Part shown: positions 1-29,386 of the stretch, piece after piece
Position numbering within the stretch: the stretch's first letter is position 1
Layout of the letters: each line of letters starts with the position of its first letter
Virus record (IMG/VR): IMGVR_UViG_2534681658_000013
DNA: 35,120 nt
Origin: a virus
Lineage: Duplodnaviria > Heunggongvirae > Uroviricota > Caudoviricetes
Reading direction: 5' to 3' (one strand)
Notes under the pieces: model-generated
The model's input: the letters and a program-made list of their open reading frames with translations, nothing else
Told to the model about the DNA's origin: nothing
Database searches by the model: none
Position numbers and translations under genes: made by a program

Positions 1-30
1 CGCGATGATGACGGGTTCTCGTTTCTGCAT
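1..30 (-). CDS. Start of a leftward gene running off the window (only about 10 codons visible, MQKREPVIIA...)
   Basis: ATG at 30..28 on the minus strand preceded by a GAGGAA Shine-Dalgarno-like motif; the frame stays open to the window edge. Far too short to assign a function. Confidence 0.2.
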   Translation of the reverse strand, partial: MQKREPVIIA

Positions 31-59
31 ACTGATTCCTCGCGGTGCTGTTTCGCTTA

Positions 60-188
60 TCAGCCGTTAGATTTTGCCGAACTGGAAAGCGCCTGTTTAA
101 ACTCACTGAAGCTGAGAACTTCTTCGCCTTCGGCAAGACCTTCGAAGTATTCTTCGTAAGCCTTTTCCATGATTGTGTCGAAATCCAT
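60..188 (-). CDS. Small acidic hypothetical protein (42 aa, MDFDTIMEKAYEEYFEGLAEGEEVLSFSEFKQALSSSAKSNG)
   Basis: Hand-translated minus-strand ORF below the 60-aa cutoff of the ORF track. Its ATG lies 1 nt after the TGA of the upstream 78-aa ORF (TGAtATG), which suggests coupled translation in the leftward early operon. Confidence 0.3.
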   Translation of the reverse strand: MDFDTIMEKAYEEYFEGLAEGEEVLSFSEFKQALSSSAKSNG

Positions 189-189
189 A

Positions 190-426
190 TCACTCACCTG
201 AGTTTCTTTCCAGCCAGCGACGGGCACCATTTTCGGTTTTAAACGTTTTGCTTTTGGTATACGTCATCGCGGTGAACGTACCGTCCTGGTTGGGGAACAC
301 GCCACATACCAGAGATTCGCTGTTGCCAAGATCGATAGTATCCATGCTGACCTCATTTCCCCTTAACGCCGGGGTAGCGGAACAAAAACCTGCTGCATAG
401 TTATTAAAGTTGAACCCTGCCGTCAT
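190..426 (-). CDS. Hypothetical early-left protein (78 aa)
   Basis: ORF track; same orientation as and downstream of the repressor gene (position analogous to lambda rex or early-left genes). No recognisable motif. Confidence 0.4.
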   Translation of the reverse strand: MTAGFNFNNYAAGFCSATPALRGNEVSMDTIDLGNSESLVCGVFPNQDGTFTAMTYTKSKTFKTENGARRWLERNSGE

Positions 427-642
427 GTTCTTACGCCTCGGGCTGGCTACTTAACCCCTGACCACTGCCTGGTAACTCGAAGTATTGCCCTGCATTCTGT
501 GGGGCGGGGTGGGTGGCAGGTATATAATGTACTTTGCGTTCATTGTTGTAAAGTACTTTTAGTACATTCTGTGTGTAAAAAAATGAGATGGGATAAAGTG
601 AAGCACAAACCCGGAGGAAGGCGCTACCGGATTTATGCTGGT

Positions 643-1062
643 TTAAGAGGCTTTTTGTTTTTTCTTTCGTGCTAACTCTTCGTAAATTGCATTGTACTTC
701 TGTTTTTTCTCTTCAAGAGTTTTTAAAAGTTCATCTGTCTCACTGTCAGGGAGCTCGTCCAGAAGGTCAATGATGATTTTTTGTCTTGGATTTAACTCCT
801 GATAGAAACGTACCTGTCCACTTTCTTCTGTATCCTCTCCCAAAAGATAGGTTGGTGTTGTTCCTATTAGTGTTGCTAATTCCCTTAATTTCTCCCGGCG
901 AGGAATTGTTTCGCCATTAAACCATTTGCTAACCGCTTTTGGTGTTAATTTCATTCGACGGGCAATTTCTGCCTGCCTTCCATGTTGTTCATAACCAGCG
1001 TTTTCACAGGCTAGCGCAAGCCTACTGGCGAACTCTTTACGCGCTTTATCTTCATGAACCAT
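643..1062 (-). CDS. Phage repressor, HTH (XRE/Cro-CI type) DNA-binding protein without an S24 peptidase domain (RacR-like immunity repressor)
   Basis: 139-aa ORF with a helix-turn-helix signature in the N-terminal half and an acidic/lysine-rich C-terminus; transcribed divergently from a Cro-like gene across a 79-bp operator-type region. Confidence 0.8.
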   Translation of the reverse strand: MVHEDKARKEFASRLALACENAGYEQHGRQAEIARRMKLTPKAVSKWFNGETIPRREKLRELATLIGTTPTYLLGEDTEESGQVRFYQELNPRQKIIIDLLDELPDSETDELLKTLEEKKQKYNAIYEELARKKKQKAS

Positions 1063-1141
1063 AAGTTCAATGATATTCGCTCTTGAATGTACTGTCAGTT
1101 CTGTTATAGCATGTACTCAAAGTTCACATTGTGAGGGTGAT
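1063..1141. promoter_or_regulatory. Divergent promoter/operator region between the repressor and Cro-like genes
   Basis: 79-bp intergenic region between divergent genes; contains repeated GTACT motifs and a TCACAtTGTGA inverted repeat immediately upstream of the Cro-like start. Specific -35/-10 boxes not assigned. Confidence 0.45.
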
Positions 1142-1396
1142 ATGAACCAGAAAACACTTGAAGATGTAATCAAAACTGTTCGCGTTGCTGTTGTGGCCGA
1201 CGTTTGTGGTGTCAGCCAAAGAGCAATCTATAAATGGATGGATAACGGAAAATTGCCTCGCACAGAATATACCGGCGAAACAAATTACGCTGAAAAAATC
1301 GCTCTTGCATCAAACGGATTATTTTCTGCCGATGCAATTTTAACTATTGGCAGGAATAAAACTACTACGAAAAAGCTGATGGGAGTTGATTCATGA
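1142..1396 (+). CDS. Cro-like / YdaS-family HTH regulator
   Basis: ATG at 1142 preceded by GAGGGTGA; HTH-like segment VADVCGVSQRAIYKWMDNGKLP; position directly opposite the repressor. The ORF track reports a longer frame from 1070, but the internal start is better placed. Confidence 0.7.
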   Translation: MNQKTLEDVIKTVRVAVVADVCGVSQRAIYKWMDNGKLPRTEYTGETNYAEKIALASNGLFSADAILTIGRNKTTTKKLMGVDS

Positions 1397-1818
1397 AAAT
1401 CAAGCATGAACACATCCGCATGGCGATGAATGCCTGGGCGCATCCGGACGGCGAAAAAGTACCGGCTGCGAAAATTACCAAAGCGTATTTCGAGCTGGGA
1501 ATGACGTTCCCGGAACTGTATGACGACAGCCATCCGGAAGCCCTGGCCCGTAATACCCAGAAAATTTTCCGTTGGCTGGATAAAGACACCCCTGATGCTG
1601 TTGAAAAAATGCAGGCTCTGTTACCGGCGATCGAAAAGGCGATGCCGCCTTTGCTGGTGGCCCGTATGCGCAGCCACAGTTCTGAATATTACCGTGAGAT
1701 CGTCGAACGGAGGGATCGGCTGGTGAAGGATGTCGATGATTTTGTTGCGTCAGCGGTTGTTTTGTATGACCAGATGAATCGCGGCGGCCCGGCAGGGAAT
1801 GCTGTGGTGATGCACTAA
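1393..1818 (+). CDS. YdaT-like (CII-position) regulatory protein
   Basis: 141 aa, begins MKIKHEHI, which I recall as the N-terminus of the Rac-prophage YdaT family; overlaps the Cro-like stop by 4 nt; occupies the cII position. Assignment is from memory and synteny. Confidence 0.55.
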   Translation: MKIKHEHIRMAMNAWAHPDGEKVPAAKITKAYFELGMTFPELYDDSHPEALARNTQKIFRWLDKDTPDAVEKMQALLPAIEKAMPPLLVARMRSHSSEYYREIVERRDRLVKDVDDFVASAVVLYDQMNRGGPAGNAVVMH

Positions 1819-1840
1819 AAGCACGGTGTTCGGGGGTTTT

Positions 1841-2803
1841 ATGAGCAGCAAGCTTCATGGTCTTGTCTGGGAAGGGTGCGCCTTCACCGGCATGATCTTA
1901 TCCAGGGTGGCGGTTATGGCCCGTCTTGCAGACTACAGCAATGACGAGGGCGTGTCATGGCCTGCCATTGAAACTATCCGGCGTCAGATCGGTGCAAGAA
2001 GTGAATCCACAGTGAAATCGGCTATTGCAGAACTGGCGAAAGAGGGCTGGCTGACGAAGGAAGAGCGTAAGGTCGGTGGGCGTAATGTAAGCAATATCTA
2101 TCGGCTTAATGTGGAAAAACTCGAAGCAGCTGCGGCGGCGGCGCGTGAGTCATATAAACCGAAAAGAAAAATTAGCCCGGCAAAAAATGACCCGTTAACA
2201 GTTGACCCGTCAAATATTGACCCCTCAACGGTTGACCCGTCAAATTTTGATGGATCAACCGTTGATAAAAAACTGCCGATTAGGGGGGCGATGATTGACC
2301 CCGATCCGTCAGTATTAAAACCTGATCCGTCAGATAAAAGATCTTCTTGTCCGGACGCTTCGCAACCGGACCCGCAGACGGCTGAACAGGATTTTTTAAC
2401 CCGACACCCTGACGCGGTTGTGTTCAGTGCGATAAAACGCCAGTGGGGAAGTCAGGAAGATTTGGTGTGCGCACAGTGGATCTGGGGACGAATCGTGAGT
2501 CTTTACGAGCAGGCGGCCAGCTATGATGGCGAGATCACTAGACCGAAAGAACCCAACTGGACAGCATGGGCCAATGACGTTCGCACAATGCGGATGCTGG
2601 ATGGCAGAACTCACAGACAAATTTGTGAAATGTTTGGGCGTCTCCAGCGGGATTCGTTCTGGGTAAAAAACATCATGAGTCCGGCAAAACTCCGGGAAAA
2701 ATGGGATGAACTGGTTATCCGCCTGGGGCGTTTGCCTGCGCAGCGTTGCGTGAATCACATTTCTGAACCGGACACTGAAATACCGCCGGGATTCAGGGGG
2801 TGA
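1841..2803 (+). CDS. Replication initiation protein (lambda O-like) with internal iterons
   Basis: N-terminal winged-helix-like segment; central region encodes repeated peptide motifs (DPLTVDPSNIDPSTVDPSNFDGSTVD) caused by direct DNA repeats; immediately followed by a DnaC-like gene. Start could instead be the GTG at 1826. Confidence 0.7.
   Translation: MSSKLHGLVWEGCAFTGMILSRVAVMARLADYSNDEGVSWPAIETIRRQIGARSESTVKSAIAELAKEGWLTKEERKVGGRNVSNIYRLNVEKLEAAAAAARESYKPKRKISPAKNDPLTVDPSNIDPSTVDPSNFDGSTVDKKLPIRGAMIDPDPSVLKPDPSDKRSSCPDASQPDPQTAEQDFLTRHPDAVVFSAIKRQWGSQEDLVCAQWIWGRIVSLYEQAASYDGEITRPKEPNWTAWANDVRTMRMLDGRTHRQICEMFGRLQRDSFWVKNIMSPAKLREKWDELVIRLGRLPAQRCVNHISEPDTEIPPGFRG
2188..2335. repeat. Iteron array / candidate phage origin of replication inside the O-like gene
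   Basis: Direct repeats of TGACCCGTCAA-like units (tgacccgttaaca, ttgacccgtcaaat, attgacccctcaacgg, ttgacccgtcaaat, ttgatggatcaaccg, tgattgaccccgatccgtcag, cctgatccgtcag) with an A-rich stretch in the middle, as in lambda ori within O. Confidence 0.6.
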
Positions 2804-2809
2804 CGTGTC

Positions 2810-3556
2810 ATGAAAAACATTGCGGCAGGCGGCGTTCTTGAACGTATCCGAAGACTGGCTCCGCCACATGTAACCGCCCCATTCAGAACGGTAGCGAAGT
2901 GGCACGAGTGGCAACTTGCTGAAGGCCAGAAACGTAGCGAGGAGATCAACCGCCTGAATCGCCAGTTGCGGGTGGAAAAAATTCTGAATCGCTCAGGCAT
3001 CCAGCCGTTGCACCGTAAATGCTCGTTTGCGAATTACCAGGTGCAGAACGACGGTCAGCGATACGCGTTGAGCCAGGCGAAATCTATCGCTGATGAACTG
3101 ATGACCGGATGCACAAATTTCGCGTTTAGCGGAAAACCTGGTACCGGGAAGAACCACTTAGCAGCAGCTATCGGGAATCGCCTGCTGAAAGACGGTCAGA
3201 CAGTGATTGTGGTTACCGTGGCTGATGTTATGAGTGCCCTCCCCGCCAGCTATGACGATGGGCAGTCAGGCGAAAAATTTTTGCGGGAACTGTGCGAAGT
3301 GGATCTGCTGGTTCTTGATGAAATTGGCATTCAGCGCGAGACGAAAAACGAGCAGGTGGTACTGCACCAGATTGTTGATCGCCGGACAGCGTCGATGCGC
3401 AGCGTGGGGATGCTGACAAACCTGAACTATGAGGCCATGAAAACATTGCTCGGCGAGCGGATTATGGATCGCATGACCATGAACGGCGGGCTATGGGTGA
3501 ATTTTAACTGGGAGAGCTGGCGTCCGAATGTCGTCCAGCCAGGAATTGCGAAGTAA
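2810..3556 (+). CDS. DnaC-like helicase loader / replication protein (IstB-like AAA+ ATPase)
   Basis: Walker [12 protein letters not shown] and Walker B LLVLDEIG motifs; 248 aa; follows the O-like gene as in Rac (YdaV-like) and other lambdoid prophages. Confidence 0.85.
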
Positions 3557-3578
3557 TTTTTACCGGGAGAAAAATTTA

Positions 3579-4340
3579 ATGGAGACTGTTTTTGACGCAC
3601 TGAAAGCAATGGGAAAAGCCACATCCATAGAACTTGCTGCGCGACTTGATATCAGTCGTGAAGAAGTGCTGAACGAACTATGGGAACTGAAAAAGGCTGG
3701 TTTTGTTGATAAAAGCGCGTACACCTGGCGTGTGGCTGATAACAACGTTCAGCAGGAACAGCCAGCGCAGGCAGAACTGCCGGAAGAAATCACCACAGCA
3801 ACAGTAGCGAAAATCTCAGAGTGCGATTTAACCGCGACGATTGAACAACGAGGACCACAAACGGCTGATGAGCTGGCTACATTGTTTGGTACCACATCAC
3901 GCAAAGTGGCTTCAACGCTGGCAATGGCAATCAGCAAAGGTCGTCTGATTCGCGTAAATCAGGGCGGTAAATTTCGTTACTGCATACCGGGCGATAATTT
4001 ACCAGCAGAGCCGAAAGCAGCATCGGTAGCGGAAACTGATGGTAAGGCCTTTCCTCATACCGCAGGTGTTGCGTTACCAGTACAGGAGGCTGCAACACAG
4101 GAAGATATTAAAACAGAAACTGTGGCGGACATTGTGCAGTCGCTGCCATCGTTTACTGAAACGCGAGCGGATGACCTGGTTTTACCATCACTGCATATGG
4201 CAAACCGCGAACTGCGTCGGGCGAAAAATCATGTCCAGAAGTGGGAGCGAGTCTGCGCCGCGCTGCGGGAGCTGAACAAGCACCGGGATATTGTTCGACA
4301 GATTACTGATTCTTCCCGCCGTGTTGTATCGGAAAAGTGA
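3579..4340 (+). CDS. Hypothetical phage protein, probably winged-helix DNA-binding
   Basis: ATG at 3579 with GGGAGA RBS; N-terminal wHTH-like segment ([30 protein letters not shown]). No family assigned. Confidence 0.55.
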
Positions 4341-4355
4341 TTGCCGGAGGCGCTT

Positions 4356-4787
4356 ATGGCAAAAGTATTTACACAAGAAGAGCGGGAAAAAATTAAAGGG
4401 CAGGTTGTTGAGCTAGTACGCCGGAGTGGGCGCGAGACGTTACGGCAACTGGAAGCCAAGACAGGTGCGACAAGATATCTGATGAGCGTTCTCGCCAGAG
4501 AGCTGGTTGCCAGTGGCGATGTATACAACTCTGGTTACGGGTTATTCCCGTCTGAACAGGCTCGTAAGGACTGGCAAAATGCCCGCAAAAAACTATCCAG
4601 GGCAAAGGTGAAGAAACCATCTGTGGTTGATCCGGACCTTATCTGGTCATTACCAGACGGAGAAATACGCCGCTACGACAGGCGTCTGAACATAATCTGT
4701 CGCGAGTGCCGGAAGAGCGAAGTTATGCAGCGTGTGCTGGCGTTTTATCAGAATGGTTTTCGAGAGAGGCTTGGAGATCAGGGATGA
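4356..4787 (+). CDS. Hypothetical phage protein
   Basis: ATG at 4356 with GGAGG RBS 7 nt upstream; 143 aa; last gene before the AT-rich island. Confidence 0.5.
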   Translation: MAKVFTQEEREKIKGQVVELVRRSGRETLRQLEAKTGATRYLMSVLARELVASGDVYNSGYGLFPSEQARKDWQNARKKLSRAKVKKPSVVDPDLIWSLPDGEIRRYDRRLNIICRECRKSEVMQRVLAFYQNGFRERLGDQG

Positions 4788-4980
4788 ATAGAACGATGAA
4801 GGATGGAAGCTACATATTCTCGGTACTAAGATTTATTTTTCTGACACAAAATGACCATTTGGCGTTACATAATCCCAAAAAAACGTATCAAAAATCTCAA
4901 AATGCGTTACGATTAGAGAGTATTTTGATTCTGCGTGCTCATTTTTTGATTGCTGTGGCTTTTTGTTGTGGGAGTGTTGA

Positions 4981-6135
4981 ATGGATTATTTATCAGAAGT
5001 GTTAAAAATCATTGAAGGTGCAACAAAGGCAAATGCTTCGATGGCTAGTAATTATGCTGGGTTGCTGGCAGATAAGCTCGAACAAAAAGGGGAGGTCAAG
5101 CAAGCCAGAATGATAAGAGAAAGGTTGCTTAGAGCTCCCCAGGCGTTGGCAGGAGCTCAAAGGGCTGGAGGTGGGATATCTCTGGGCTCATTACCGGTAG
5201 ATATTGATAGTCGACTCAACACTGTTGATGTCAGTTATCCTAAATTAGACAGTTCAGAGATTTTTCTGCCTGCAGCAATCAGTACCCGTGTTGAAGAGTT
5301 TATCACTAATGTTCAACGTTATGATGAGTTTGTTAAAGCTGATGCAGCATTGCCGAGTCGTATGCTCGTGTATGGAAAGCCAGGAACAGGTAAGACTATG
5401 TTATCTAAGTACATCGCTACCCGCTTAGATTTTCCACTTCTTACAGTGCGTTGCGATACTTTGATTAGTAGTTTATTGGGACAAACCAGCAAAAATCTTA
5501 GACAGGTTTTCGATTATGTAATGCAGAGGCCATCAGTGCTTTTTTTAGACGAATTTGATGCTTTAGCTGGAGCAAGAGGTAATGAGAGAGATATAGGTGA
5601 GCTTCAGCGAGTTGTCATTTCACTATTGCAGAATATGGATGCGGCATCAGAGGATACGGTAATTATTGCCTCAACTAACCATGAGCAACTTCTGGATCCT
5701 GCAATCTGGAGGCGATTTAGCTTCAGAATTCCAATGCCTCTGCCTGACATACATCAGAGAGAGTTAATTTGGAAAAATCGTTTAAAGAATATGATATGTA
5801 GCGATCTAGATTTAAGTGATTTATCAAGAAAATCGGAGGGATTATCCGGAGCAATAATTGAACAGGTGAGCTTGGATGCACGTAGGGATGCAGTTATTGA
5901 AGGTGCAAGTGTGATAAATCACCATAAATTGTATAGGCGTTTGTATCTTGCGCAATCGCTTATGGAAGGTGTAAATTTAAGCACTTACGAAGATGAAATT
6001 CGTTGGTTACGTTCTAAAGATAAAAAATTATTTTCTATCAGAGTTCTTGCTAATTTGTACAAACTTACATCAAGAGTAATTTCAAACATTCTGAAGGAGT
6101 CAGGAGCATATGAGCAGAAGGGGTACACAGTTTAG
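4981..6135 (+). CDS. AAA+ ATPase (classic AAA family), first gene of a candidate two-gene defence cassette (IetA-like?)
   Basis: Walker A GKPGTGKT (5374..5397), Walker B LFLDEFD (DE at 5548..5553), second region of homology STNHEQLLDPAIWRRF; GGGAGTG RBS before the ATG at 4981; AT-rich codon usage distinct from flanking phage genes. Confidence 0.85.
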   Translation: MDYLSEVLKIIEGATKANASMASNYAGLLADKLEQKGEVKQARMIRERLLRAPQALAGAQRAGGGISLGSLPVDIDSRLNTVDVSYPKLDSSEIFLPAAISTRVEEFITNVQRYDEFVKADAALPSRMLVYGKPGTGKTMLSKYIATRLDFPLLTVRCDTLISSLLGQTSKNLRQVFDYVMQRPSVLFLDEFDALAGARGNERDIGELQRVVISLLQNMDAASEDTVIIASTNHEQLLDPAIWRRFSFRIPMPLPDIHQRELIWKNRLKNMICSDLDLSDLSRKSEGLSGAIIEQVSLDARRDAVIEGASVINHHKLYRRLYLAQSLMEGVNLSTYEDEIRWLRSKDKKLFSIRVLANLYKLTSRVISNILKESGAYEQKGYTV

Positions 6136-8374
6136 TAACGCAAAAGTTACAAACCCAATGTTAAGAATCCCTTTTTCCAGTAGTGACTTGGGTGCAATAG
6201 TAAACGCTGGCGGTGGGGCAAAGGTATTGGTTGATGTAACAGCCGAATATAGACAAGGGCTAGTAAGAAATTTAACAACCAGTAAACATTATTTAGAATC
6301 CAAACTTTCAGAGTACCCTGGAAGCTTGGGTACTTTGGTTTTCAAATTAAGAGACCAGGGAATAGCCAAAACGCATAGGCCGAACAAAATTGCTCAAGAG
6401 GCTGGATTGCAAAATGCCGGTCATGCCAAAATAGATGAAATGTTGGTTGCTGCTCATGCCGGCTGTTTTGACGTATTAGAGTCAGTCATTTTACATCGGA
6501 ATATTAAAGCGATTTTGGCTAATCTAAGCGCGATTGAGCGCATTGAACCTTGGGATGAGAATAGGAAGGTTCCAGGAGGCACTGATGGTTTGTTTGAATC
6601 ATCAAACATCCTTGTACGACTATTTGAGTACACAGGTGAAGATGCAACTTACAACAACTATGAAAACGTTATTTCTATATTAGAACAACACGGAGTTAAA
6701 TATGATGAGATTAGACCAAAATGTGGTCTTCCCTTATTAAGGATAATGGATTTATCCCCAAATGATAGATATATATTAGACATTCTCATTGATTACCCGG
6801 GTATAAGAACGTTAATTCCAGAACCAAAATATTCAGCATTCCCGGTTAGTGTAAGTGATTCTGTTGGCATTGAAACAAATAGCTTTCCCGTACCATCAGA
6901 AGAATTACCCATTGTTGCTGTATTTGACACTGGGGTAAGCCCCATCGCGGCAACAATTACTCCTTGGGTAGTGAGTAGGGAAACATACGTAATTCCTCCT
7001 GATACGAGTTATGAACATGGGACTATGGTGTCTTCATTGATATCAGGCGCTCATTTTTTAAATGACAATCATCCATGGATTCCTGATACAAAATCTAAAA
7101 TCCATGATGTTTGTGCTTTAGATGGAAATGGATCTTATATATCAGATTTAATTCTGAGGCTAGCAGATGCTGTAAATAAAAGACCAGATATAAAAGTCTG
7201 GAATTTGTCTTTGGGAGGCGGACCATGTAATGAGCAGATGTTTAGTGATTTTGCGATGGAGTTAGATCGGCTCAGCGATAAATTTGGTATTTTGTTTGTA
7301 GTTGCTGCAGGTAATTATGTAGATGAACCTATACGTACATGGCCAAATCCTGATCCGCTTGGAGGTGCTGATTTAATTTCCTCTCCTGGAGAGTCAGTCC
7401 GAGCACTAACAGTTGGTTCAGTTTCTCATATGGAAGCTAATGATGCTTTAAGTGAAATTGGAACACCGACACCATATACTCGTCGTGGCCCTGGGCCTGT
7501 ATTTACTCCAAAGCCAGATATAATCCATGCTGGCGGTGGGGTTCATAGACCTTGGAATGTAGGAGCAAGCAGTTTAAAGGTCGTAGGGCCAGATAATAGG
7601 CTTTGCTCTAATTTTGGTACTAGTTTTGCTGCTCCAATTGTGGCAAGTTTAGCTGCGCATACATGGCAGAGAATAGCCACTAATTCAGACTTTAATGTTT
7701 CACCATCATTGATTAAAGCATTATTAATTCATTCCGCTCAATTATCTTCTCCTGATTACTCGCCAAGTGAAAGACGCTATTTGGGAGCGGGAATTCCTAA
7801 TGAGGTTATTGAGACCTTATATGATAGTGATGATAGGTTTACTCTGATTTTCCAAACATTCTTGGTTCCTGGGGTGAGGTGGAGAAAGGAAAACTATCCC
7901 ATACCATCGGCACTTATTCAAAATGGAAAATTTAAAGGTGAGATTGTAATTACTGCTGCATATGCACCACCACTGAACTCTAATGCCGGCAGTGAATATG
8001 TTCGCGCGAACGTAGAGCTAAGTTTTGGCTTAATTGAGAATAATACTATAAAAGGAAAAGTACCTATGGAAGGAGAAAACGGTCAATCTGGATATGAGAG
8101 AGCTCAAATTGAGCATGGTGGAAAGTGGTCACCAGTAAAAATTCATCGCAAGGCATTTAATAAAGGAATTACTTCGGGTAACTGGGCTCTTCAAGCTAAA
8201 ACAACGTTGAGAGCGAATGAACCGGCCTTAATGGAGCCTTTACCTGTAACTATTGTAGTAACTTTAAAATCATTAGATGGAAACACACAAGTTTATGCTG
8301 ATGGCGTAAGAGCTTTAAATGCTAATAACTGGGCTCACTATCCATTGCCTGCTCGTGTGCCAGTTTCCGTATAA
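6110..8374 (+). CDS. Subtilisin-like serine peptidase (MEROPS S8) with large N- and C-terminal domains of unknown function; second gene of the cassette (IetS-like?)
   Basis: Catalytic triad in subtilase order: Asp in VAVFDTGVS (codon 6926..6928), His in HGTMVS (7016..7018), Ser in GTSFAAP (7622..7624). No N-terminal signal peptide. AGGAG RBS; the start overlaps the ATPase gene by 26 nt. Confidence 0.85.
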   Translation: MSRRGTQFSNAKVTNPMLRIPFSSSDLGAIVNAGGGAKVLVDVTAEYRQGLVRNLTTSKHYLESKLSEYPGSLGTLVFKLRDQGIAKTHRPNKIAQEAGLQNAGHAKIDEMLVAAHAGCFDVLESVILHRNIKAILANLSAIERIEPWDENRKVPGGTDGLFESSNILVRLFEYTGEDATYNNYENVISILEQHGVKYDEIRPKCGLPLLRIMDLSPNDRYILDILIDYPGIRTLIPEPKYSAFPVSVSDSVGIETNSFPVPSEELPIVAVFDTGVSPIAATITPWVVSRETYVIPPDTSYEHGTMVSSLISGAHFLNDNHPWIPDTKSKIHDVCALDGNGSYISDLILRLADAVNKRPDIKVWNLSLGGGPCNEQMFSDFAMELDRLSDKFGILFVVAAGNYVDEPIRTWPNPDPLGGADLISSPGESVRALTVGSVSHMEANDALSEIGTPTPYTRRGPGPVFTPKPDIIHAGGGVHRPWNVGASSLKVVGPDNRLCSNFGTSFAAPIVASLAAHTWQRIATNSDFNVSPSLIKALLIHSAQLSSPDYSPSERRYLGAGIPNEVIETLYDSDDRFTLIFQTFLVPGVRWRKENYPIPSALIQNGKFKGEIVITAAYAPPLNSNAGSEYVRANVELSFGLIENNTIKGKVPMEGENGQSGYERAQIEHGGKWSPVKIHRKAFNKGITSGNWALQAKTTLRANEPALMEPLPVTIVVTLKSLDGNTQVYADGVRALNANNWAHYPLPARVPVSV

Positions 8375-8385
8375 CAACTATATAA

Positions 8386-8418
8386 ATCAAACCCGCTGTA
8401 GCGGGTTTGATTTATTTG
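8386..8418 (+). terminator. Rho-independent terminator after the peptidase gene
   Basis: Perfect hairpin aaacccgc-tgta-gcgggttt followed by a T-rich tract (gatttatttg); the palindrome could act in both directions. Confidence 0.6.
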
Positions 8419-8782
8419 TGGGTGTGTTTTATAAAAATACCGCCCATACACAACAAAATACAAAAAGTATTACAGATAAAAAAGGAGCGTAATGTGCAGA
8501 TTTGTTGTTTTCCATATTTACTCACCTTAATATGATTAATCCCGATAAGATTGTTATTTCAGCGGTTTTCAAATGAAATATTATGCTAATTTGGCAGATT
8601 TGCATAACATTAAAATTTAATTTATCTAACCGCTTTTAATAATAAGCGTTGTATTTTTATCCCAGCAATCTGTTGTTTGGTTTTTATTCCATTAAGGTGG
8701 GGCTTTACACTGGAGCCAGTTTATTTATACTTCATACGTCAGCCTGAACAACTGGCACCTGCTGCGCCAGCAGAGAAAACAG

Positions 8783-9061
8783 ATGGCGCACGATACCAAA
8801 TTTTACAATTCGGATAACTCTGCCGCCCCTGCCAGCAGGCACGGGCGGCGTTCTCATGCATTCAAATCTGACTGGTATCAGCACGACCCCTGCACCGAAG
8901 AACAGGCTGAATGGCTCATTCAGTGTTACCGCGGGCGCGGATGCGAGGTTAAAAAAGCCCTTAGCCTCGACTACCGTCACTGGATAATCTCCGTCAGGCT
9001 CCCTTACTCAGAACGGCCAGCGCGTCCGTCCCGCACATTCCAGCAACGGATCTGGAGGTAA
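8783..9061 (+). CDS. Hypothetical protein (92 aa), possibly a gene remnant
   Basis: ORF track; sits between the AT-rich 380-bp non-coding stretch and the DUF968 gene; no recognisable motif; unusual composition (Arg/Trp/His-rich). Confidence 0.3.
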   Translation: MAHDTKFYNSDNSAAPASRHGRRSHAFKSDWYQHDPCTEEQAEWLIQCYRGRGCEVKKALSLDYRHWIISVRLPYSERPARPSRTFQQRIWR

Positions 9062-11463: not shown

Positions 11464-11539
11464 GGCCCTTTAGCTCAGTGGTGAGAGCGAGCGACTCATA
11501 ATCGCCAGGTCGCTGGTTCAAATCCAGCAAGGGCCACCA
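11464..11539 (+). tRNA. tRNA-Ile2 (anticodon CAU, lysidine type; ileX/ileZ-like)
   Basis: Hand-folded cloverleaf: acceptor GGCCCTT/AAGGGCC, D-stem GCTC/GAGC, anticodon loop CTCATAA, T-arm GCTGG-TTCAAAT-CCAGC, encoded CCA. Very close to my recollection of E. coli ileX, so more likely Ile2 than elongator Met. Confidence 0.8.
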
Positions 11540-11639: not shown

Positions 11640-11713
11640 GCGTTGTTAGCTCAGCCGGACAGAGCAATTGCCTTCTAAGCAATCGGTCACTGGTTCGAAT
11701 CCAGTACAGCGCG
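11640..11713 (+). tRNA. tRNA-Arg (anticodon UCU, reads AGA)
   Basis: Hand-folded cloverleaf: acceptor GCGTTGT/ACAGCGC (one G-U pair), anticodon stem ATTGC/GCAAT with loop CTTCTAA, T-arm ACTGG-TTCGAAT-CCAGT; CCA not encoded. Resembles argN/argO-type tRNAs of lambdoid prophages. Confidence 0.75.
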
Positions 11714-11826
11714 CTATATTCATTCTTCCAGATTCCTTCCGGCAGAGCCTTATACTGAAATATACCTGGCTCAGGATATTGTTGAAAATATTTTATGTTT
11801 GTCAAAAATAAAAGTTCTGTTAAGTA

Positions 11827-12180: not shown

Positions 12181-12571
12181 ATACATATCTGGATTATCAC
12201 TTGTTACGGTAAAAAGTGATTGCTTACTGTTTTTGTGAGTGGCATTGCAGCAGCCGGATAATGTCAGTGCTGGCTGACGGTGTGCTGGTGGCGGGTGTGG
12301 TGGTTGTTGCTTTCCCGTTGCTGAAAAAGAAAACGCCAGACTGTTAGCCGGGTATCAGTTAGCGGGAGAAATTTTTAAATACTTCACAATTCAGGCGGTT
12401 GACTGTTGTCTGGTTTGCGGGGAGTTTGTTAAAAGAAACTGGCATGGTGAATCCCCCTGTGCGGAGGGGCAATCAGCGAGTAGGTATATGGGATAATCGC
12501 GGATTCAGGTGCTGGTACTGAATTCACCGGGAGGCACCCGGCACCATGCAATGGCACATAGCGCCACTCTC

Positions 12572-12600
12572 CAGCCCCTCTCCGGAGGGGCTGTTTATAT
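12572..12600 (+). terminator. Strong intrinsic terminator hairpin
   Basis: 9-bp perfect stem cagcccctc-tccg-gaggggctg followed by TTTATATTGATTTT. Confidence 0.5.
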
Positions 12601-12627
12601 TGATTTTGTCAGATGTGAGTAAACTCC

Positions 12628-26832: not shown

Positions 26833-29386
26833 TCTTGTTATTGACCTGAGTCTGGATGCTGTCCGTTTCGATGAGCAGATGAGCCGGGTAAGGCGTCATT
26901 TTTCAGGTCTGGATACCGACGCCAGAAAAACCGCCAGTGCTGTTGAACAGGGCCTGAGCCGCCAGGCGCTGGCTGCACAAAAAGCCGGGATTTCCGTCGG
27001 GCAGTATAAAGCGGCCATGCGAACCCTGCCCGCACAGTTTACGGATATCGCCACGCAGCTTGCCGGTGGTCAGAATCCCTGGTTGATCCTGCTGCAACAG
27101 GGCGGTCAGGTGAAGGACTCCTTCGGCGGGATGATCCCCATGTTCAGGGGGCTTGCCGGTGCGATCACCCTGCCGATGGTCGGGGTCACCTCGCTGGCGG
27201 TGGCGACAGGTGCGCTGGCGTACGCCTGGTACCAGGGCGACGCCACGCTTTCAGAATTTAATAAAACGCTGGTCCTTTCCGGCAATCAGGCCGGACTGAC
27301 TGCCGATCGTATGCTGACGCTCTCAAGAGCCGGGCAGGCAGCAGGGCTGACGTTTAACCAGGCGAGAGAGTCACTGGCAGCCCTGGTGAATGCCGGTGTG
27401 CGTGGTGGTGAACAGTTTGATGCCATCAACCAGAGTGTCGCGCGTTTTGCGTCTGCATCCGGTGTGGAGGTGGATAAAGTCGCTGAAGCCTTCGGGAAGC
27501 TGACCACTGACCCGACGTCGGGACTGATGGCGATGGCGCGCCAGTTCCGTAACGTGACGGCAGAGCAGATTGCGTATGTTGCACAGCTGCAGCGTTCCGG
27601 AGACGAGGCCGGGGCATTGCAGGCGGCGAACGATATCGCCACGAAAGGCTTTGATGAGCAGACCCGTCGCCTGAAAGAAAACATGGGAACACTGGAGACC
27701 TGGGCGGATAAAACAGGGAAGGCATTCAAATCGATGTGGGATGCCATTCTGGATATCGGTCGTCCGGAATCCTCAGCGGATATGCTCGCCAGTGCGCAGA
27801 AGGCATTTGATGAGGCGGATAAAAAATGGCAGTGGTACCAGAGCCGGAGCCAGCGCCGGGGAAAGACCTCCTCTTTTCGTGCGAACCTTCAGGGGGCATG
27901 GGATGACCGGGAAAATGCCCGTCTGGGTCTGGCAGCGGCCACGCTGCAGTCGGATATGGAAAAAGCCGGTGAACTGGCGGCAAGGGACAGGGCTGAGCGT
28001 GAGTCGTCACAGCTGAAGTATACCGGAGAGGCGCAGAAGGCGTATGAGCGCCTGCAGACGCCGCTGGATAAATATACCGCCCGTCAGAAAGAGCTGAATA
28101 AGGCCCTGAAAGACGGAAAAATCCTGCAGGCGGATTACAACACGCTGATGGCGTCGGCAAAAAAGGATTATGAATCGACGCTGAAAAAGCCGTCAGGTGT
28201 GAAGGTGTCTGCCGGTGAGCGCCAGGAAGACCGGGCGCATGCAGCCCTGCTGGCGCTTGAAACCGAGCTCAGGACGCTGGAAAAACACAGCGGTGTGAAT
28301 GAGAAAATCAGCCAGCAGCGCCGGGATTTATGGGAAGCGGAAAGTCAGTATGTGGTCCTGAAAGAGGCCGCCACGAAACGGCAGTTATCTGAGCAGGAAA
28401 AATCCCTGCTGGCTCATGAGAAAGAGACGCTGGAGTACAAACGCCAGCTGGCTGAGCTGGGAGACAAGATTGAACACCAGAAGCGGCTGAATGAGCTGGC
28501 ACAGCAGGCGGCGCGGTTTGAACAGCAGCAAAGCGCGAAGCAGGCGGCAATCAGCGCAAAAGCCCGCGGCCTCACCGACCGTCAGGCGCAGCGGGAGTCG
28601 GAAGAGCAGCGCCTTCGTGAGGTGTACGGTGATAATCCGGCTGCGCTGGCGAAGGCCACATCGGCACTGAAGAACACCTGGTCTGCGGAGGAGCAGCTTC
28701 GTGGAAGCTGGATGGCCGGGATGAAGTCCGGCTGGGGAGAGTGGGCGGAAAGTGCGACGGACAGTTTTTCGCAGGTTAAAAGTGTGGCCACGCAGACCTT
28801 TGACGGTATTGCACAGAATATGGCAGCGATGCTGACCGGCAGCGAACAGAACTGGCGTGGTTTCACCCGTTCTGTGCTGTCCATGCTGACAGAGATTTTT
28901 CTGAAGCAGGCGATGGTGGGGATAGTCGGGAGTATCGGCAGCGCCATTGGCGGGGCTGTTGGTGGCGGCGCATCCGCGTCAGGCGGTACAGCCATTCAGG
29001 CTGCGGCGGCGAACTTCCATTTCGCGACCGGGGGATTTACGGGGACGGGGGGTAAATATGAACCTGCGGGGATTGTTCATCGCGGGGAGTTTGTCTTCAC
29101 GAAGGAGGCGACCAGCCGGATTGGTGTCGGCAATCTGTACCGCCTGATGCGGGGCTATGCGGAAGGTGGTTATGTCGGCGGTGCCGGAAGTCCGGCGCAG
29201 ATGCGGCGGGCGGAAGGCATTAATTTTAATCAGAACAATCACGTGGTGATTCAGAACGACGGCCCCAACGGGCGGGCAGGGCCGCAGCTGATGAAAGCGG
29301 TGTATGAGATGGCCCGCAAGGGGGCACAGGATGAACTCCGGCTGCAGTTGCGTGATGGCGGTATGTTATCAGGGAGCGGTGGATGA
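26813..29386 (+). CDS. H: Tail tape measure protein H
   Basis: 857 aa; extensive blocks match lambda gpH (PVGDLV.DLSLDA.RFDEQM, AGISVGQYKAAMR.LPAQFTD, QNPWLILLQQGGQVKDSFGGMIPMFRGLAGAITLPMVG, C-terminal GIVHRGEFVFTKEATSRIGVGNLYRLMRGYA). Confidence 0.9.
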   Translation: MSQPVGDLVIDLSLDAVRFDEQMSRVRRHFSGLDTDARKTASAVEQGLSRQALAAQKAGISVGQYKAAMRTLPAQFTDIATQLAGGQNPWLILLQQGGQVKDSFGGMIPMFRGLAGAITLPMVGVTSLAVATGALAYAWYQGDATLSEFNKTLVLSGNQAGLTADRMLTLSRAGQAAGLTFNQARESLAALVNAGVRGGEQFDAINQSVARFASASGVEVDKVAEAFGKLTTDPTSGLMAMARQFRNVTAEQIAYVAQLQRSGDEAGALQAANDIATKGFDEQTRRLKENMGTLETWADKTGKAFKSMWDAILDIGRPESSADMLASAQKAFDEADKKWQWYQSRSQRRGKTSSFRANLQGAWDDRENARLGLAAATLQSDMEKAGELAARDRAERESSQLKYTGEAQKAYERLQTPLDKYTARQKELNKALKDGKILQADYNTLMASAKKDYESTLKKPSGVKVSAGERQEDRAHAALLALETELRTLEKHSGVNEKISQQRRDLWEAESQYVVLKEAATKRQLSEQEKSLLAHEKETLEYKRQLAELGDKIEHQKRLNELAQQAARFEQQQSAKQAAISAKARGLTDRQAQRESEEQRLREVYGDNPAALAKATSALKNTWSAEEQLRGSWMAGMKSGWGEWAESATDSFSQVKSVATQTFDGIAQNMAAMLTGSEQNWRGFTRSVLSMLTEIFLKQAMVGIVGSIGSAIGGAVGGGASASGGTAIQAAAANFHFATGGFTGTGGKYEPAGIVHRGEFVFTKEATSRIGVGNLYRLMRGYAEGGYVGGAGSPAQMRRAEGINFNQNNHVVIQNDGPNGRAGPQLMKAVYEMARKGAQDELRLQLRDGGMLSGSGG

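What the first reader, a model, noticed from the sequence alone, without database searches (positions are those of the whole stretch)
520..1141. RacR/YdaS/YdaT-type immunity region with operator-like palindromes on both sides of the repressor gene
The repressor lacks an S24 autoprotease domain, so induction cannot proceed by lambda-like RecA-mediated self-cleavage and must use another route, such as an antirepressor or degradation. Downstream genes resemble the Rac ydaS/ydaT pair, whose products have been reported to be toxic when derepressed. Inverted repeats GTACTTT(N14)AAAGTAC and GTAC-tttta-GTAC at about 523..570, plus GTACT repeats and TCACAtTGTGA at 1063..1141, are candidate operators.
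Basis: partly seen in the sequence, partly recalled or inferred. Interest (0 to 1): 0.45.

Follow-up and report, generated by a model that had tools for sequence, protein, structure and literature searches.

The report
HK022-type prophage immunity switch
This is the ordinary lysis/lysogeny control region of an E. coli lambda-like prophage: its operators and DNA-binding proteins match those of phage HK022, but its repressor is a short form that lacks the domain RecA-stimulated self-cleavage needs.

Summary
The quoted sequences are present, and the region is a real lambdoid immunity region, but the family label and the operator parsing are wrong.

- **Operators:** there are five 17-bp sites, ATGWAC-N5-GTWCAT. 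OL1 and OL2 (527-543, 551-567) overlap a leftward PL. OR3, OR2 and OR1 (1054-1070, 1087-1103, 1111-1127) lie between the repressor and cro.
- **Match to HK022:** sequence, number and spacing (24 bp; 33 + 24 bp) match the annotated HK022 operators. A matrix built only from HK022 sites ranks these five first in the 35-kb window. The half-sites are invariant in six related loci.
- **Proteins:** the repressor N-domain is 47% identical to HK022 CI, and Cro is 60% identical to HK022 Cro. Neither is a RacR or YdaS homolog. Only YdaT fits the label; it is about 99% identical to CP-933P YdaT, and its published operator sits at 1386-1403.
- **No S24 domain:** confirmed. The C-terminus is a DicA-like helical hairpin.
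- **Induction:** phage Tritos carries the identical repressor. It is released spontaneously, and ciprofloxacin and trimethoprim were not reported to raise its release.

Short non-cleavable repressors and YdaT as a CII analogue are already published. This is a new member of a known kind, of low interest.

The parts
527..543 (.). OL1 operator, ATGTACTTTGCGTTCAT; overlaps the -10 of PL
   Evidence: HK022-derived matrix score 14.9, top five in the window. Aligns to annotated HK022 oL site 2201-2215. Half-sites invariant in 7 loci.
551..567 (.). OL2 operator, AAGTACTTTTAGTACAT; abuts or overlaps the -35 of PL, 24 bp from OL1
   Evidence: Matrix score 19.2. Aligns to HK022 oL site 2225-2239.
524..552 (-). 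Predicted leftward promoter PL: TTTACA (552-547), 17 nt, CATTAT (529-524). It reads into the DUF1391/ydfB/ydfC/dicB/exonuclease/xis/int operon.
   Evidence: Consensus scan. Aligns to the region of HK022 that carries the annotated pL -35 and -10. TGTAAAGTAC is invariant in 7 loci. Left-arm genes are seen in the identical genome. Inferred, not mapped.
602..639 (-). Hairpin just after the repressor stop codon; candidate terminator of the repressor transcript
   Evidence: RNA fold -19.6 kcal/mol, z = -4.0 against shuffles. The U-tract is weak, so this is tentative.
643..1062 (-). Repressor, 139 aa: HK022-CI-like HTH domain (about residues 1-76), flexible linker (77-88), DicA-like helical hairpin (92-138). 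No S24 domain.
   Evidence: Pfam HTH_3 only. 47% to HK022 CI over residues 4-102. 62% to an S24-bearing Raoultella CI over residues 1-102. 29% to DicA over residues 30-137. AlphaFold model pLDDT 83, all helical. Identical protein annotated as CI repressor in phage Tritos.
1054..1070 (.). OR3 operator, ATGAACCATAAGTTCAA; covers the repressor start codon (1060-1062) and the predicted PRM start site
   Evidence: Best matrix score in the window, 20.6. Aligns to HK022 oR site 3000-3014, which also overlaps the cI start.
1070..1098 (-). Predicted PRM: CTGACA (1098-1093), 17 nt, TATCAT (1075-1070). The start site falls at or 1 nt before the ATG, giving a leaderless repressor mRNA.
   Evidence: Consensus scan, 10 of 12 matches. 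The TATnnT pattern is conserved in 7 loci. No Shine-Dalgarno sequence upstream of the ATG. Leaderless cI and paaR2 are precedents (PMC8630535). Inferred.
1087..1103 (.). OR2 operator, ATGTACTGTCAGTTCTG; lies in the PR spacer, 33 bp from OR3
   Evidence: Matrix score 15.2. Aligns to HK022 oR 3033-3047.
1083..1110 (+). Predicted PR: TTGAAT (1083-1088), 16 nt, TG-n-TATAGC (1102-1110)
   Evidence: Aligns column for column with the annotated HK022 pR -35 (TTGACT) and -10 (CATAAT). Inferred.
1111..1127 (.). OR1 operator, ATGTACTCAAAGTTCAC; just downstream of the PR -10, 24 bp from OR2
   Evidence: Matrix score 16.9. Aligns to HK022 oR 3057-3071.
1142..1396 (+). Cro, 84 aa, homolog of HK022 Cro
   Evidence: 60% identity, E 1e-33 to HK022 Cro. 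No significant similarity to K-12 YdaS or DicC. RefSeq start at this ATG.
1386..1403 (.). YdaT operator OM, TTGATTcatgaaAATCAA, at the cro stop / ydaT start overlap
   Evidence: Exact match to the inverted repeat footprinted for CP-933P YdaT (PMC9986795). Single occurrence in the window. Present in the five fetched loci that carry this cassette with a ydaT, absent from K-12 Rac.
1393..1818 (+). YdaT, 141 aa, CII-analogue transcription factor
   Evidence: PF06254. E 2.7e-92, one substitution relative to PDB 8bt1, CP-933P YdaT. 31% to K-12 YdaT. phrog_163, CII-like activator.

Best explanation
Window 520-1820 is the lysis/lysogeny switch of a lambdoid E. coli prophage integrated next to ompW. 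It is of the phage HK022 immunity type. The 139-aa repressor, read leftward, is proposed to bind five 17-bp pseudo-palindromic operators (ATGWAC-N5-GTWCAT). OL1 and OL2 overlap the leftward early promoter PL. OR1 and OR2 overlap the rightward early promoter PR, which drives cro, ydaT and the replication genes. OR3 lies on the repressor's own start codon and predicted leaderless start site, which allows autoregulation. Cro, an HK022 Cro homolog, is expected to compete for the same sites. YdaT, the CII analogue, binds TTGATT-N6-AATCAA at the cro/ydaT junction and is expected to switch on a leftward establishment promoter, as shown for the near-identical CP-933P protein. The repressor differs from HK022 CI in its C-terminal half. 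The S24 self-cleaving domain is replaced by a short DicA-like helical hairpin, so RecA cannot trigger cleavage. Induction is therefore most likely independent of SOS. It would occur by stochastic flipping of the repressor/Cro bistable switch or by repressor lability, as reported for DicA and PaaR2, possibly helped by an antirepressor not found in this window. Shown here: the homologies, the sites, their enrichment, layout and conservation. Taken from published work on homologs: YdaT binding, HK022 operator function, and the behaviour of Tritos. Inferred: promoter positions, order of site occupancy, and the induction route.
For: Operators: a matrix built from the five annotated HK022 sites ranks the five window sites first, 14.9-20.6 against 11.1 for the next. 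GTAC-N5-GTWC gives 8 matches against 0.82 expected. The same layout, two sites 24 bp apart and three sites 24 + 33 bp apart, is found in HK022, Tritos, a metagenome contig, two Salmonella prophages and an S24-bearing Raoultella prophage, but not in Rac or Qin. Half-sites are invariant while the N5 cores and spacers vary. Proteins: repressor N-domain 47% to HK022 CI and 62% to an S24-bearing CI; C-terminal half like DicA; helical model without an S24 fold; Cro 60% to HK022 Cro; YdaT about 99% to PDB 8bt1, with its footprinted operator present (PMC9986795). Promoters. Non-SOS behaviour: Tritos encodes the identical repressor. It forms plaques and is released spontaneously at about 3e6 genomes/mL. 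It was not among the prophages reported as induced by ciprofloxacin, and trimethoprim lowered its yield slightly (PMC9928086). No LexA box and no Rem homolog were found in the window. Precedents: DicA, Rem, heat and urea lability, RecA-independent switching (PMC10448788); PaaR2/YdaS/YdaT bistability and PL/OL (PMC8630535); HK022 CI looping between OL and OR (PMC8053113).
Against: There are no binding data for this protein. The predicted PR -10 (TATAGC) lacks the conserved final T. The predicted PRM -35 lies inside OR2, so it is unclear whether bound repressor activates or represses PRM. How the short C-terminal domain oligomerises is unknown, so cooperativity and OL-OR looping are assumptions. 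The induction route is inferred from negative evidence: no antirepressor or LexA box in the 35-kb window plus about 6 kb of the left arm of an identical prophage. An antirepressor could lie beyond the window's right end or in another prophage, as in Gifsy phages. The published text does not give a ciprofloxacin fold-change for Tritos.
Confidence: 0.85

Rival explanations
1. One reading: a RacR/YdaS/YdaT-type module whose operators are the long palindrome GTACTTT-N14-AAAGTAC and the palindrome TCACAtTGTGA, and whose downstream genes are toxins held in check by an essential repressor.
For: The gene order matches Rac. A Rac-like phage, vB_EcoS-666R9, carries this very cassette in the racR/ydaS position next to a Rac-type YdaT that is 94% identical to K-12 YdaT. 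YdaT family membership is real. RacR is reported to be essential (PMC5700373, PMC5700377).
Against: The repressor shares only a 33-residue HTH stretch with RacR. The Cro-like gene matches YdaS at E 0.075. The HK022-type motif is absent from the Rac immunity region. The long palindrome and TCACAtTGTGA are no more than chance as units, and TCACAtTGTGA is not conserved beyond close relatives. CP-933P YdaT, about 99% identical, was not toxic, and the YdaS/YdaT toxin idea is disputed (PMC8630535, PMC5917428).
Confidence: 0.05
2. The 529-556 inverted repeat followed by TTTT is an intrinsic terminator rather than, or in addition to, a pair of operators.
For: The consensus scan lists it as terminator-like on the + strand, with 10 pairs and a T-run.
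Against: No rightward gene ends upstream of it; all genes to its left are on the - strand. Only 3 of the 10 pairs are G-C. One terminator-like site is the number expected by chance in this stretch. In relatives the stem arms are conserved as operator half-sites while the parts between them change without compensation.
Confidence: 0.04
3. Same switch, but induction works through a dedicated antirepressor, LexA-controlled or not, encoded outside the stretch examined or on another prophage. The antirepressor would bind the DicA-like C-terminal or HTH domain, as in Gifsy phages and in Qin (Rem).
For: Short repressors of this size are the class regulated by antirepressors (PMC3121763). DicA, which shares the C-terminal half, is antagonised by Rem (PMC10448788). 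Weak fold matches over both domains are to repressors with protein antagonists: SinR, the Salmonella phage repressor 5d4z, and the arbitrium repressor 9iaq. Their TM-scores are only 0.38-0.46.
Against: No Rem homolog, no PHROG antirepressor hit among the small ORFs tested, and no LexA box in the window or the left arm. SOS-inducing antibiotics were not reported to raise Tritos release (PMC9928086).
Confidence: 0.3

Closest known systems
Phage HK022 immunity region (cI, cro, OL, OR; GenBank X16093; Oberto et al. 1989 and Carlson & Little 1993, recalled from memory; summarised in PMC8053113)
   Same: Operator sequence (ATGWAC-N5-GTWCAT), number and spacing: two OL sites 24 bp apart; three OR sites at 33 + 24 bp, with OR3 over the cI start. 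PL and PR positions. CI N-terminal domain 47% identical. Cro 60% identical.
   Different: HK022 CI is 235 aa with an S24 self-cleaving C-terminal domain; this repressor is 139 aa with a helical hairpin. HK022 has an extra operator after cro (L005 3323-3339), absent here. A YdaT gene follows cro here, whereas the HK022 record annotates a pE promoter and oE sites downstream of cro; HK022 is recalled to carry a lambda-type cII.
DicA/DicC of cryptic prophage Qin, and the Gifsy GfoR/GtgR class of short non-cleavable repressors
   Same: Repressor of about 135-140 aa without an Ala-Gly/S24 cleavage module. The C-terminal half is alignable with DicA (29% over residues 30-137, E 5e-15). The left operon is the same: DUF1391, ydfB, ydfC, dicB. 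The switch is RecA-independent (PMC10448788, PMC3121763).
   Different: The DNA-binding domain and operators are HK022-type, not DicA-type; the motif is absent from Qin. Cro is unrelated to DicC. No Rem antirepressor homolog.
CP-933P (Sp12) PaaR2 / YdaS / YdaT switch of E. coli O157:H7
   Same: YdaT about 99% identical, with the footprinted OM operator conserved at the same place (PMC9986795). Short S24-less repressor. Predicted leaderless repressor mRNA. OL/PL on the far side of the repressor gene (PMC8630535).
   Different: The published PaaR2/YdaS operators have the consensus GTTTAGTAA; none lies in the immunity region here. There is no paaA2-parE2 toxin-antitoxin cargo: only about 75 bp separate the repressor stop from OL2.
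Rac prophage RacR / YdaS / YdaT
   Same: Gene order and YdaT family membership (31% identity). The cassette can occupy the racR/ydaS slot in a Rac-like phage.
   Different: Repressor and Cro are not homologous to RacR and YdaS beyond a generic HTH. The operators differ.

Membership tests
HK022-type lambdoid immunity region | Repressor DNA-binding domain homologous to that of HK022 CI | tested here: met
   47% identity over residues 4-102, E 6e-32. The recognition-helix stretch TPKAVSKWFNGET compares with TPKAISKWFNGES in HK022.
HK022-type lambdoid immunity region | Cro homologous to HK022 Cro | tested here: met
   60% identity over 73 residues, E 1e-33.
HK022-type lambdoid immunity region | Operators of HK022 sequence and layout (2 at OL, 3 at OR, OR3 on the cI start) | tested here: met
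   The HK022-only matrix ranks the five sites first. Spacings are 24 and 33 + 24 bp, as annotated in X16093.
HK022-type lambdoid immunity region | RecA-cleavable S24 C-terminal domain in the repressor | tested here: not met
   No Peptidase_S24 hit. The alignment with HK022 CI and P0021 ends at about residue 102. The model is all helical.
HK022-type lambdoid immunity region | Actual cross-immunity with HK022 | not testable with these tools
   Needs plating HK022 on a lysogen, or binding assays.
Rac RacR/YdaS/YdaT module | Repressor homologous to RacR | tested here: not met
   Only 12 of 33 residues identical, within the HTH, pairwise E 1e-4.
Rac RacR/YdaS/YdaT module | First rightward gene homologous to YdaS | tested here: not met
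   Pairwise E 0.075 over 18 residues.
Rac RacR/YdaS/YdaT module | Second rightward gene a YdaT (PF06254) | tested here: met
   PF06254 E 2.8e-10, above the curated cut-off. 31% identical to K-12 YdaT, E 1e-15.
Short non-cleavable prophage repressors (DicA / Gifsy GfoR class) | About 135-150 aa, HTH domain, no Ala-Gly/S24 cleavage module | tested here: met
   139 aa, HTH_3 only. Best PHROG is the 133-position phrog_5736, matched to its end.
Short non-cleavable prophage repressors (DicA / Gifsy GfoR class) | C-terminal half homologous to that of DicA | tested here: met
   29% identity and 59% positives over residues 30-137, E 5e-15, extending through the C-terminal helices.
Short non-cleavable prophage repressors (DicA / Gifsy GfoR class) | Cognate antirepressor (Rem / GfoA type), often LexA-controlled | tested here: inconclusive
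   No Rem homolog by tblastn and no LexA box in the window or the left arm. GfoA was not available for comparison. An antirepressor could lie elsewhere in the genome.
CP-933P PaaR2/YdaS/YdaT switch | YdaT of CP-933P type with its TTGATT-N6-AATCAA operator | tested here: met
   E 2.7e-92, one substitution relative to 8bt1. Exact operator at 1386-1403.
CP-933P PaaR2/YdaS/YdaT switch | PaaR2/YdaS operators (GTTTAGTAA repeats) and paaA2-parE2 cargo | tested here: not met
   No GTTTAGTAA-like site within 1-5000. No ORF between the repressor stop (643) and OL2 (567).

The most novel reading that the evidence does not exclude
The same HK022-type DNA-binding domain and operator set exists in nature with two interchangeable C-terminal modules. 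One is an S24 self-cleaving domain (HK022, Klebsiella and Raoultella prophages). The other is a DicA-like helical hairpin (this prophage, Tritos, Salmonella prophages). This would be a natural domain swap that keeps immunity specificity but uncouples induction from SOS. The short form would then be induced by a signal not yet identified, for example repressor lability to heat or chaotropes as in DicA, or a new antirepressor. A lysogen could also be immune to SOS-inducible HK022-type phages.
Probability: 0.3. Interest if true: 0.4.

Novelty: new member of a known kind. Interest (0 to 1): 0.2.

Why it matters
The practical value is mainly in annotation. This cassette occurs in about 410 of 5,426 complete E. 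coli genomes at 80% coverage or more and in active phages such as Tritos. It can now be labelled as an HK022-type immunity region with five defined operators, a non-cleavable repressor, a Cro and a CII analogue. That is more accurate than 'toxin YdaT family' or 'RacR-like'. It predicts which prophages should be hetero- or homo-immune. It also predicts that SOS-inducing antibiotics should not mobilise this prophage and its IteA/IteS defence cargo. The pairing of one DNA-binding domain with either an S24 or a DicA-type C-terminal module gives a clean natural pair for asking how the induction mode is exchanged without changing specificity. None of this overturns current understanding.

Tried and rejected
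- **RacR/YdaS homology.** Tested by pairwise BLASTP against K-12 proteins and rejected. DicC homology of Cro was also rejected.
Their counts are no higher than in shuffles, or they are common in the window. TCACAtTGTGA is not conserved in Salmonella, Raoultella or HK022.
- **LexA-controlled antirepressor.** The exact CTGT-N8-ACAG search gave one hit, inside a large ORF at 28877. Relaxed searches gave no site with intact CTG/CAG and an AT-rich spacer in an intergenic position.
- **Rem homolog.** tblastn found nothing. ORF 8783-9061, which occupies the Qin rem position upstream of the DUF968 gene, is unrelated to Rem and belongs to a PHROG of unknown function.
- **PaaR2-type operators.** None lies in the immunity region.
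- **Solved-structure search of the repressor.** It hits only HTH domains (P22 C2, 434). Foldseek matches covering both domains are weak, with TM-scores 0.38-0.46, and were not used as evidence of mechanism.
- **Extra operator after cro.** A counterpart of the HK022 site was looked for. Only a degenerate ATGCACTAAAAGCACGG was found at 1810-1826, score 9.0, within chance range.

Full report
**Source and context.** Window 430-1900 is 100% identical to a prophage in the E. coli strain 602354 chromosome. At least 80% of it is present in 410 of 5,426 complete E. coli genomes. In that genome the prophage sits next to ompW. Leftward from the region lie DUF1391, ydfB, ydfC, dicB, a DUF1482 gene, an exonuclease VIII-like gene, xis and int. 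Rightward lie an HTH replication-initiator gene, a DnaC-like ydaV, DUF1627, DUF977 and the iteA/iteS defence genes. The active siphovirus Tritos, from strain LF82, shares the region at 95.7% DNA identity and encodes an identical repressor.

The window contains 9 perfect inverted repeats with 7-nt arms and a 14-nt loop, and 49 with 5-nt arms and a 1-nt loop, close to or within shuffle ranges.
- The repeat finder showed a different unit: a roughly 15-17-bp element present twice at each side, with 24-bp phasing.
- GTAC-N5-GTWC gives 8 matches on the two strands (6 loci), four of these loci in the two intergenic regions. The expectation is 0.82 matches.

**Identity of the operators.**
- A tblastn search showed that the repressor's N-terminal 100 residues match CI of HK022 (47%), 933W-type CI, and S24-bearing CI proteins of Klebsiella and Raoultella (62-72%).
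- GenBank record X16093 annotates two oL and three oR sites for HK022, with the third oR site lying over the cI start codon.
- The HK022 sites read ATGTACTTAAAGTTCAT, AAGTACCAATAGTACAT, TTGAACCATAAGTTCAA, CTGTACTATCAGTTCCG and ATGAACCATAAGTTCAC.
- The window has ATGTACTTTGCGTTCAT (527), AAGTACTTTTAGTACAT (551), ATGAACCATAAGTTCAA (1054), ATGTACTGTCAGTTCTG (1087) and ATGTACTCAAAGTTCAC (1111). The spacings are the same: 24 bp at OL, and 33 + 24 bp at OR.
- A weight matrix built from the HK022 sites alone ranks these five as the top five positions of the whole window. Their scores are 14.9-20.6 and the next best is 11.1. The mean best score in shuffles is 12.6.
- The same layout recurs in Tritos, a metagenome contig (repressor 89% identical), two Salmonella prophages (62-65%) and a Raoultella prophage whose repressor has an S24 domain. 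Rac and Qin lack it.
- In alignments of these loci the half-sites are invariant, while the central N5 and the inter-operator spacers vary.

- GTACTTT-N14-AAAGTAC is the left halves of OL1 and OL2.
- GTAC-tttta-GTAC is the core of OL2.
- The GTACT repeats are the left halves of OR2 and OR1.
- TCACAtTGTGA is the right half of OR1 plus the cro ribosome-binding site. It is lost in Salmonella, Raoultella and HK022.
- OR3 was missed.

**Promoters (inferred).**
- The scan finds leftward TTTACA-17-CATTAT at 552-524. This is PL, and OL1 and OL2 overlap it.
- It also finds leftward CTGACA-17-TATCAT at 1098-1070. This is PRM. It places the start site at the repressor ATG, so the mRNA would be leaderless. 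No Shine-Dalgarno sequence precedes the ATG. Leaderless mRNAs are known for lambda cI and paaR2 (PMC8630535).
- PR is TTGAAT-16-TGtTATAGC (1083-1110). It aligns column for column with the annotated HK022 pR hexamers.
- A stable hairpin follows the repressor stop codon on the minus strand at 602-639 (z = -4.0). It may terminate the repressor transcript.

**Proteins.**
- Repressor: Pfam finds only HTH_3. Similarity to S24-bearing relatives stops at about residue 102. The rest aligns with DicA of Qin, 29% over residues 30-137. The AlphaFold model (pLDDT 83) shows a five-helix HTH domain, a disordered linker at 77-88, and a helical hairpin at 92-138. RacR shares only a 33-residue HTH stretch.
- Cro-like protein: 60% identical to HK022 Cro. 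It is unrelated to YdaS and DicC.
- Third gene: a true YdaT. It hits PF06254 and is 31% identical to K-12 YdaT. It has one substitution relative to PDB 8bt1, the CP-933P YdaT.
- YdaT operator: the published high-affinity site TTGATT-N6-AATCAA lies exactly at the cro/ydaT overlap, 1386-1403 (PMC9986795). In CP-933P, YdaT activates a PRE-like promoter there (PMC8630535).

**Mosaicism.** The Rac-like phage vB_EcoS-666R9 carries this same repressor/Cro cassette joined to a Rac-type YdaT (94% identical to K-12 YdaT). The joint lies just after the YdaT operator. This explains why the region looks Rac-like by position although repressor and Cro are not RacR or YdaS homologs.

**Induction.**
- The inference that RecA-mediated self-cleavage is impossible is sound, but it is not new. 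Short repressors of this class were described as non-cleavable and widespread in E. coli (PMC3121763).
- DicA is antagonised by the antirepressor Rem. Its switch also flips spontaneously, and on heat or urea, independently of RecA (PMC10448788).
- PaaR2 lacks the peptidase motif, and its switch is bistable (PMC8630535).
- Tritos is released spontaneously at about 2.8e6 genomes/mL and forms plaques. It was not among the prophages reported as induced by ciprofloxacin, and trimethoprim lowered its yield slightly (PMC9928086).
- I found no LexA box, no Rem homolog and no PHROG antirepressor among the small ORFs I tested, in the window or the left arm.
- I therefore favour SOS-independent switching by bistable flipping or repressor lability. 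An antirepressor encoded elsewhere remains a live alternative, at about 0.3.

**Toxicity.** CP-933P YdaT, about 99% identical to this one, was not toxic. YdaS and YdaT are argued to be Cro and CII analogues (PMC8630535, PMC5917428). The toxin framing should be dropped.

**Verdict.** This is a real, well-defined but ordinary lambdoid immunity region. It is HK022-type in its operators, DNA-binding domain and Cro. It is DicA/Gifsy-type in the repressor's non-cleavable C-terminal half. It is CP-933P-type in its CII analogue. It is a new member of a known kind. Its main value is correct annotation, plus a neat natural example of one DNA-binding specificity paired with either a cleavable or a non-cleavable C-terminal module.

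Noticed in passing
window 4981-8374 (+): Two-gene defence cargo between the replication genes and the late-regulation genes: an AAA ATPase (384 aa) followed by an S8 subtilase-family protein (754 aa). RefSeq annotates them as anti-phage IteA/IteS in the identical genome. A G+C-rich hairpin and an AT-rich stretch without ORFs of 70 aa or more on the + strand follow (8375-8780).
   Followed up: partly
window 11464-11539, 11640-11714 and 12413-12602 (+): tRNA-Met (CAT) and tRNA-Arg (TCT) genes lie downstream of the Q antiterminator gene, followed by a full-length match to the sRNA family STnc100 (132 bits).
   Followed up: no
L007 3553-4220 and L008 3588-4255 (Salmonella); L012 3808-5250 (Raoultella): In relatives the slot between the repressor gene and OL holds cargo: higB-like and HTH (higA-like) genes in Salmonella, and a 480-aa AAA_15/AAA_21 ATPase in Raoultella. 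This parallels paaA2-parE2 in CP-933P. In the window this slot is empty.
   Followed up: partly
window 1810-1826: ATGCACTAAAAGCACGG spans the ydaT stop codon and resembles an operator with T-to-C changes in both half-sites (matrix score 9.0, within chance range). HK022 has a true extra operator just after cro (L005 3323-3339). The window site is probably coincidental, since its left half encodes the conserved YdaT C-terminus.
   Followed up: partly
L002 4641-4967 (Tritos Cro) and P0015 / L008 3001-3456: These look like start-codon mis-annotations. The Tritos Cro CDS uses the long ORF that begins inside the operator region (equivalent to window 1070). The 151-aa Salmonella repressor start lies upstream of OR3, and the ATG within OR3 gives 138 aa.
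   Followed up: partly
L014 (phage vB_EcoS-666R9) 2713-3885: A Rac-like phage (racC, ydaE, kil, sieB) carries this HK022-type repressor/Cro cassette fused to a Rac-type YdaT. The mosaic joint is at the conserved MKIKHEH start of ydaT, and the CP-933P-type YdaT operator is retained next to a different YdaT allele. Whether that allele recognises the site is unknown.
   Followed up: partly
window 8783-9061 (+): A 92-aa ORF of unknown function (phrog_1212) lies immediately upstream of the DUF968 gene, the position that rem occupies in Qin. It is not similar to Rem.
   Followed up: partly
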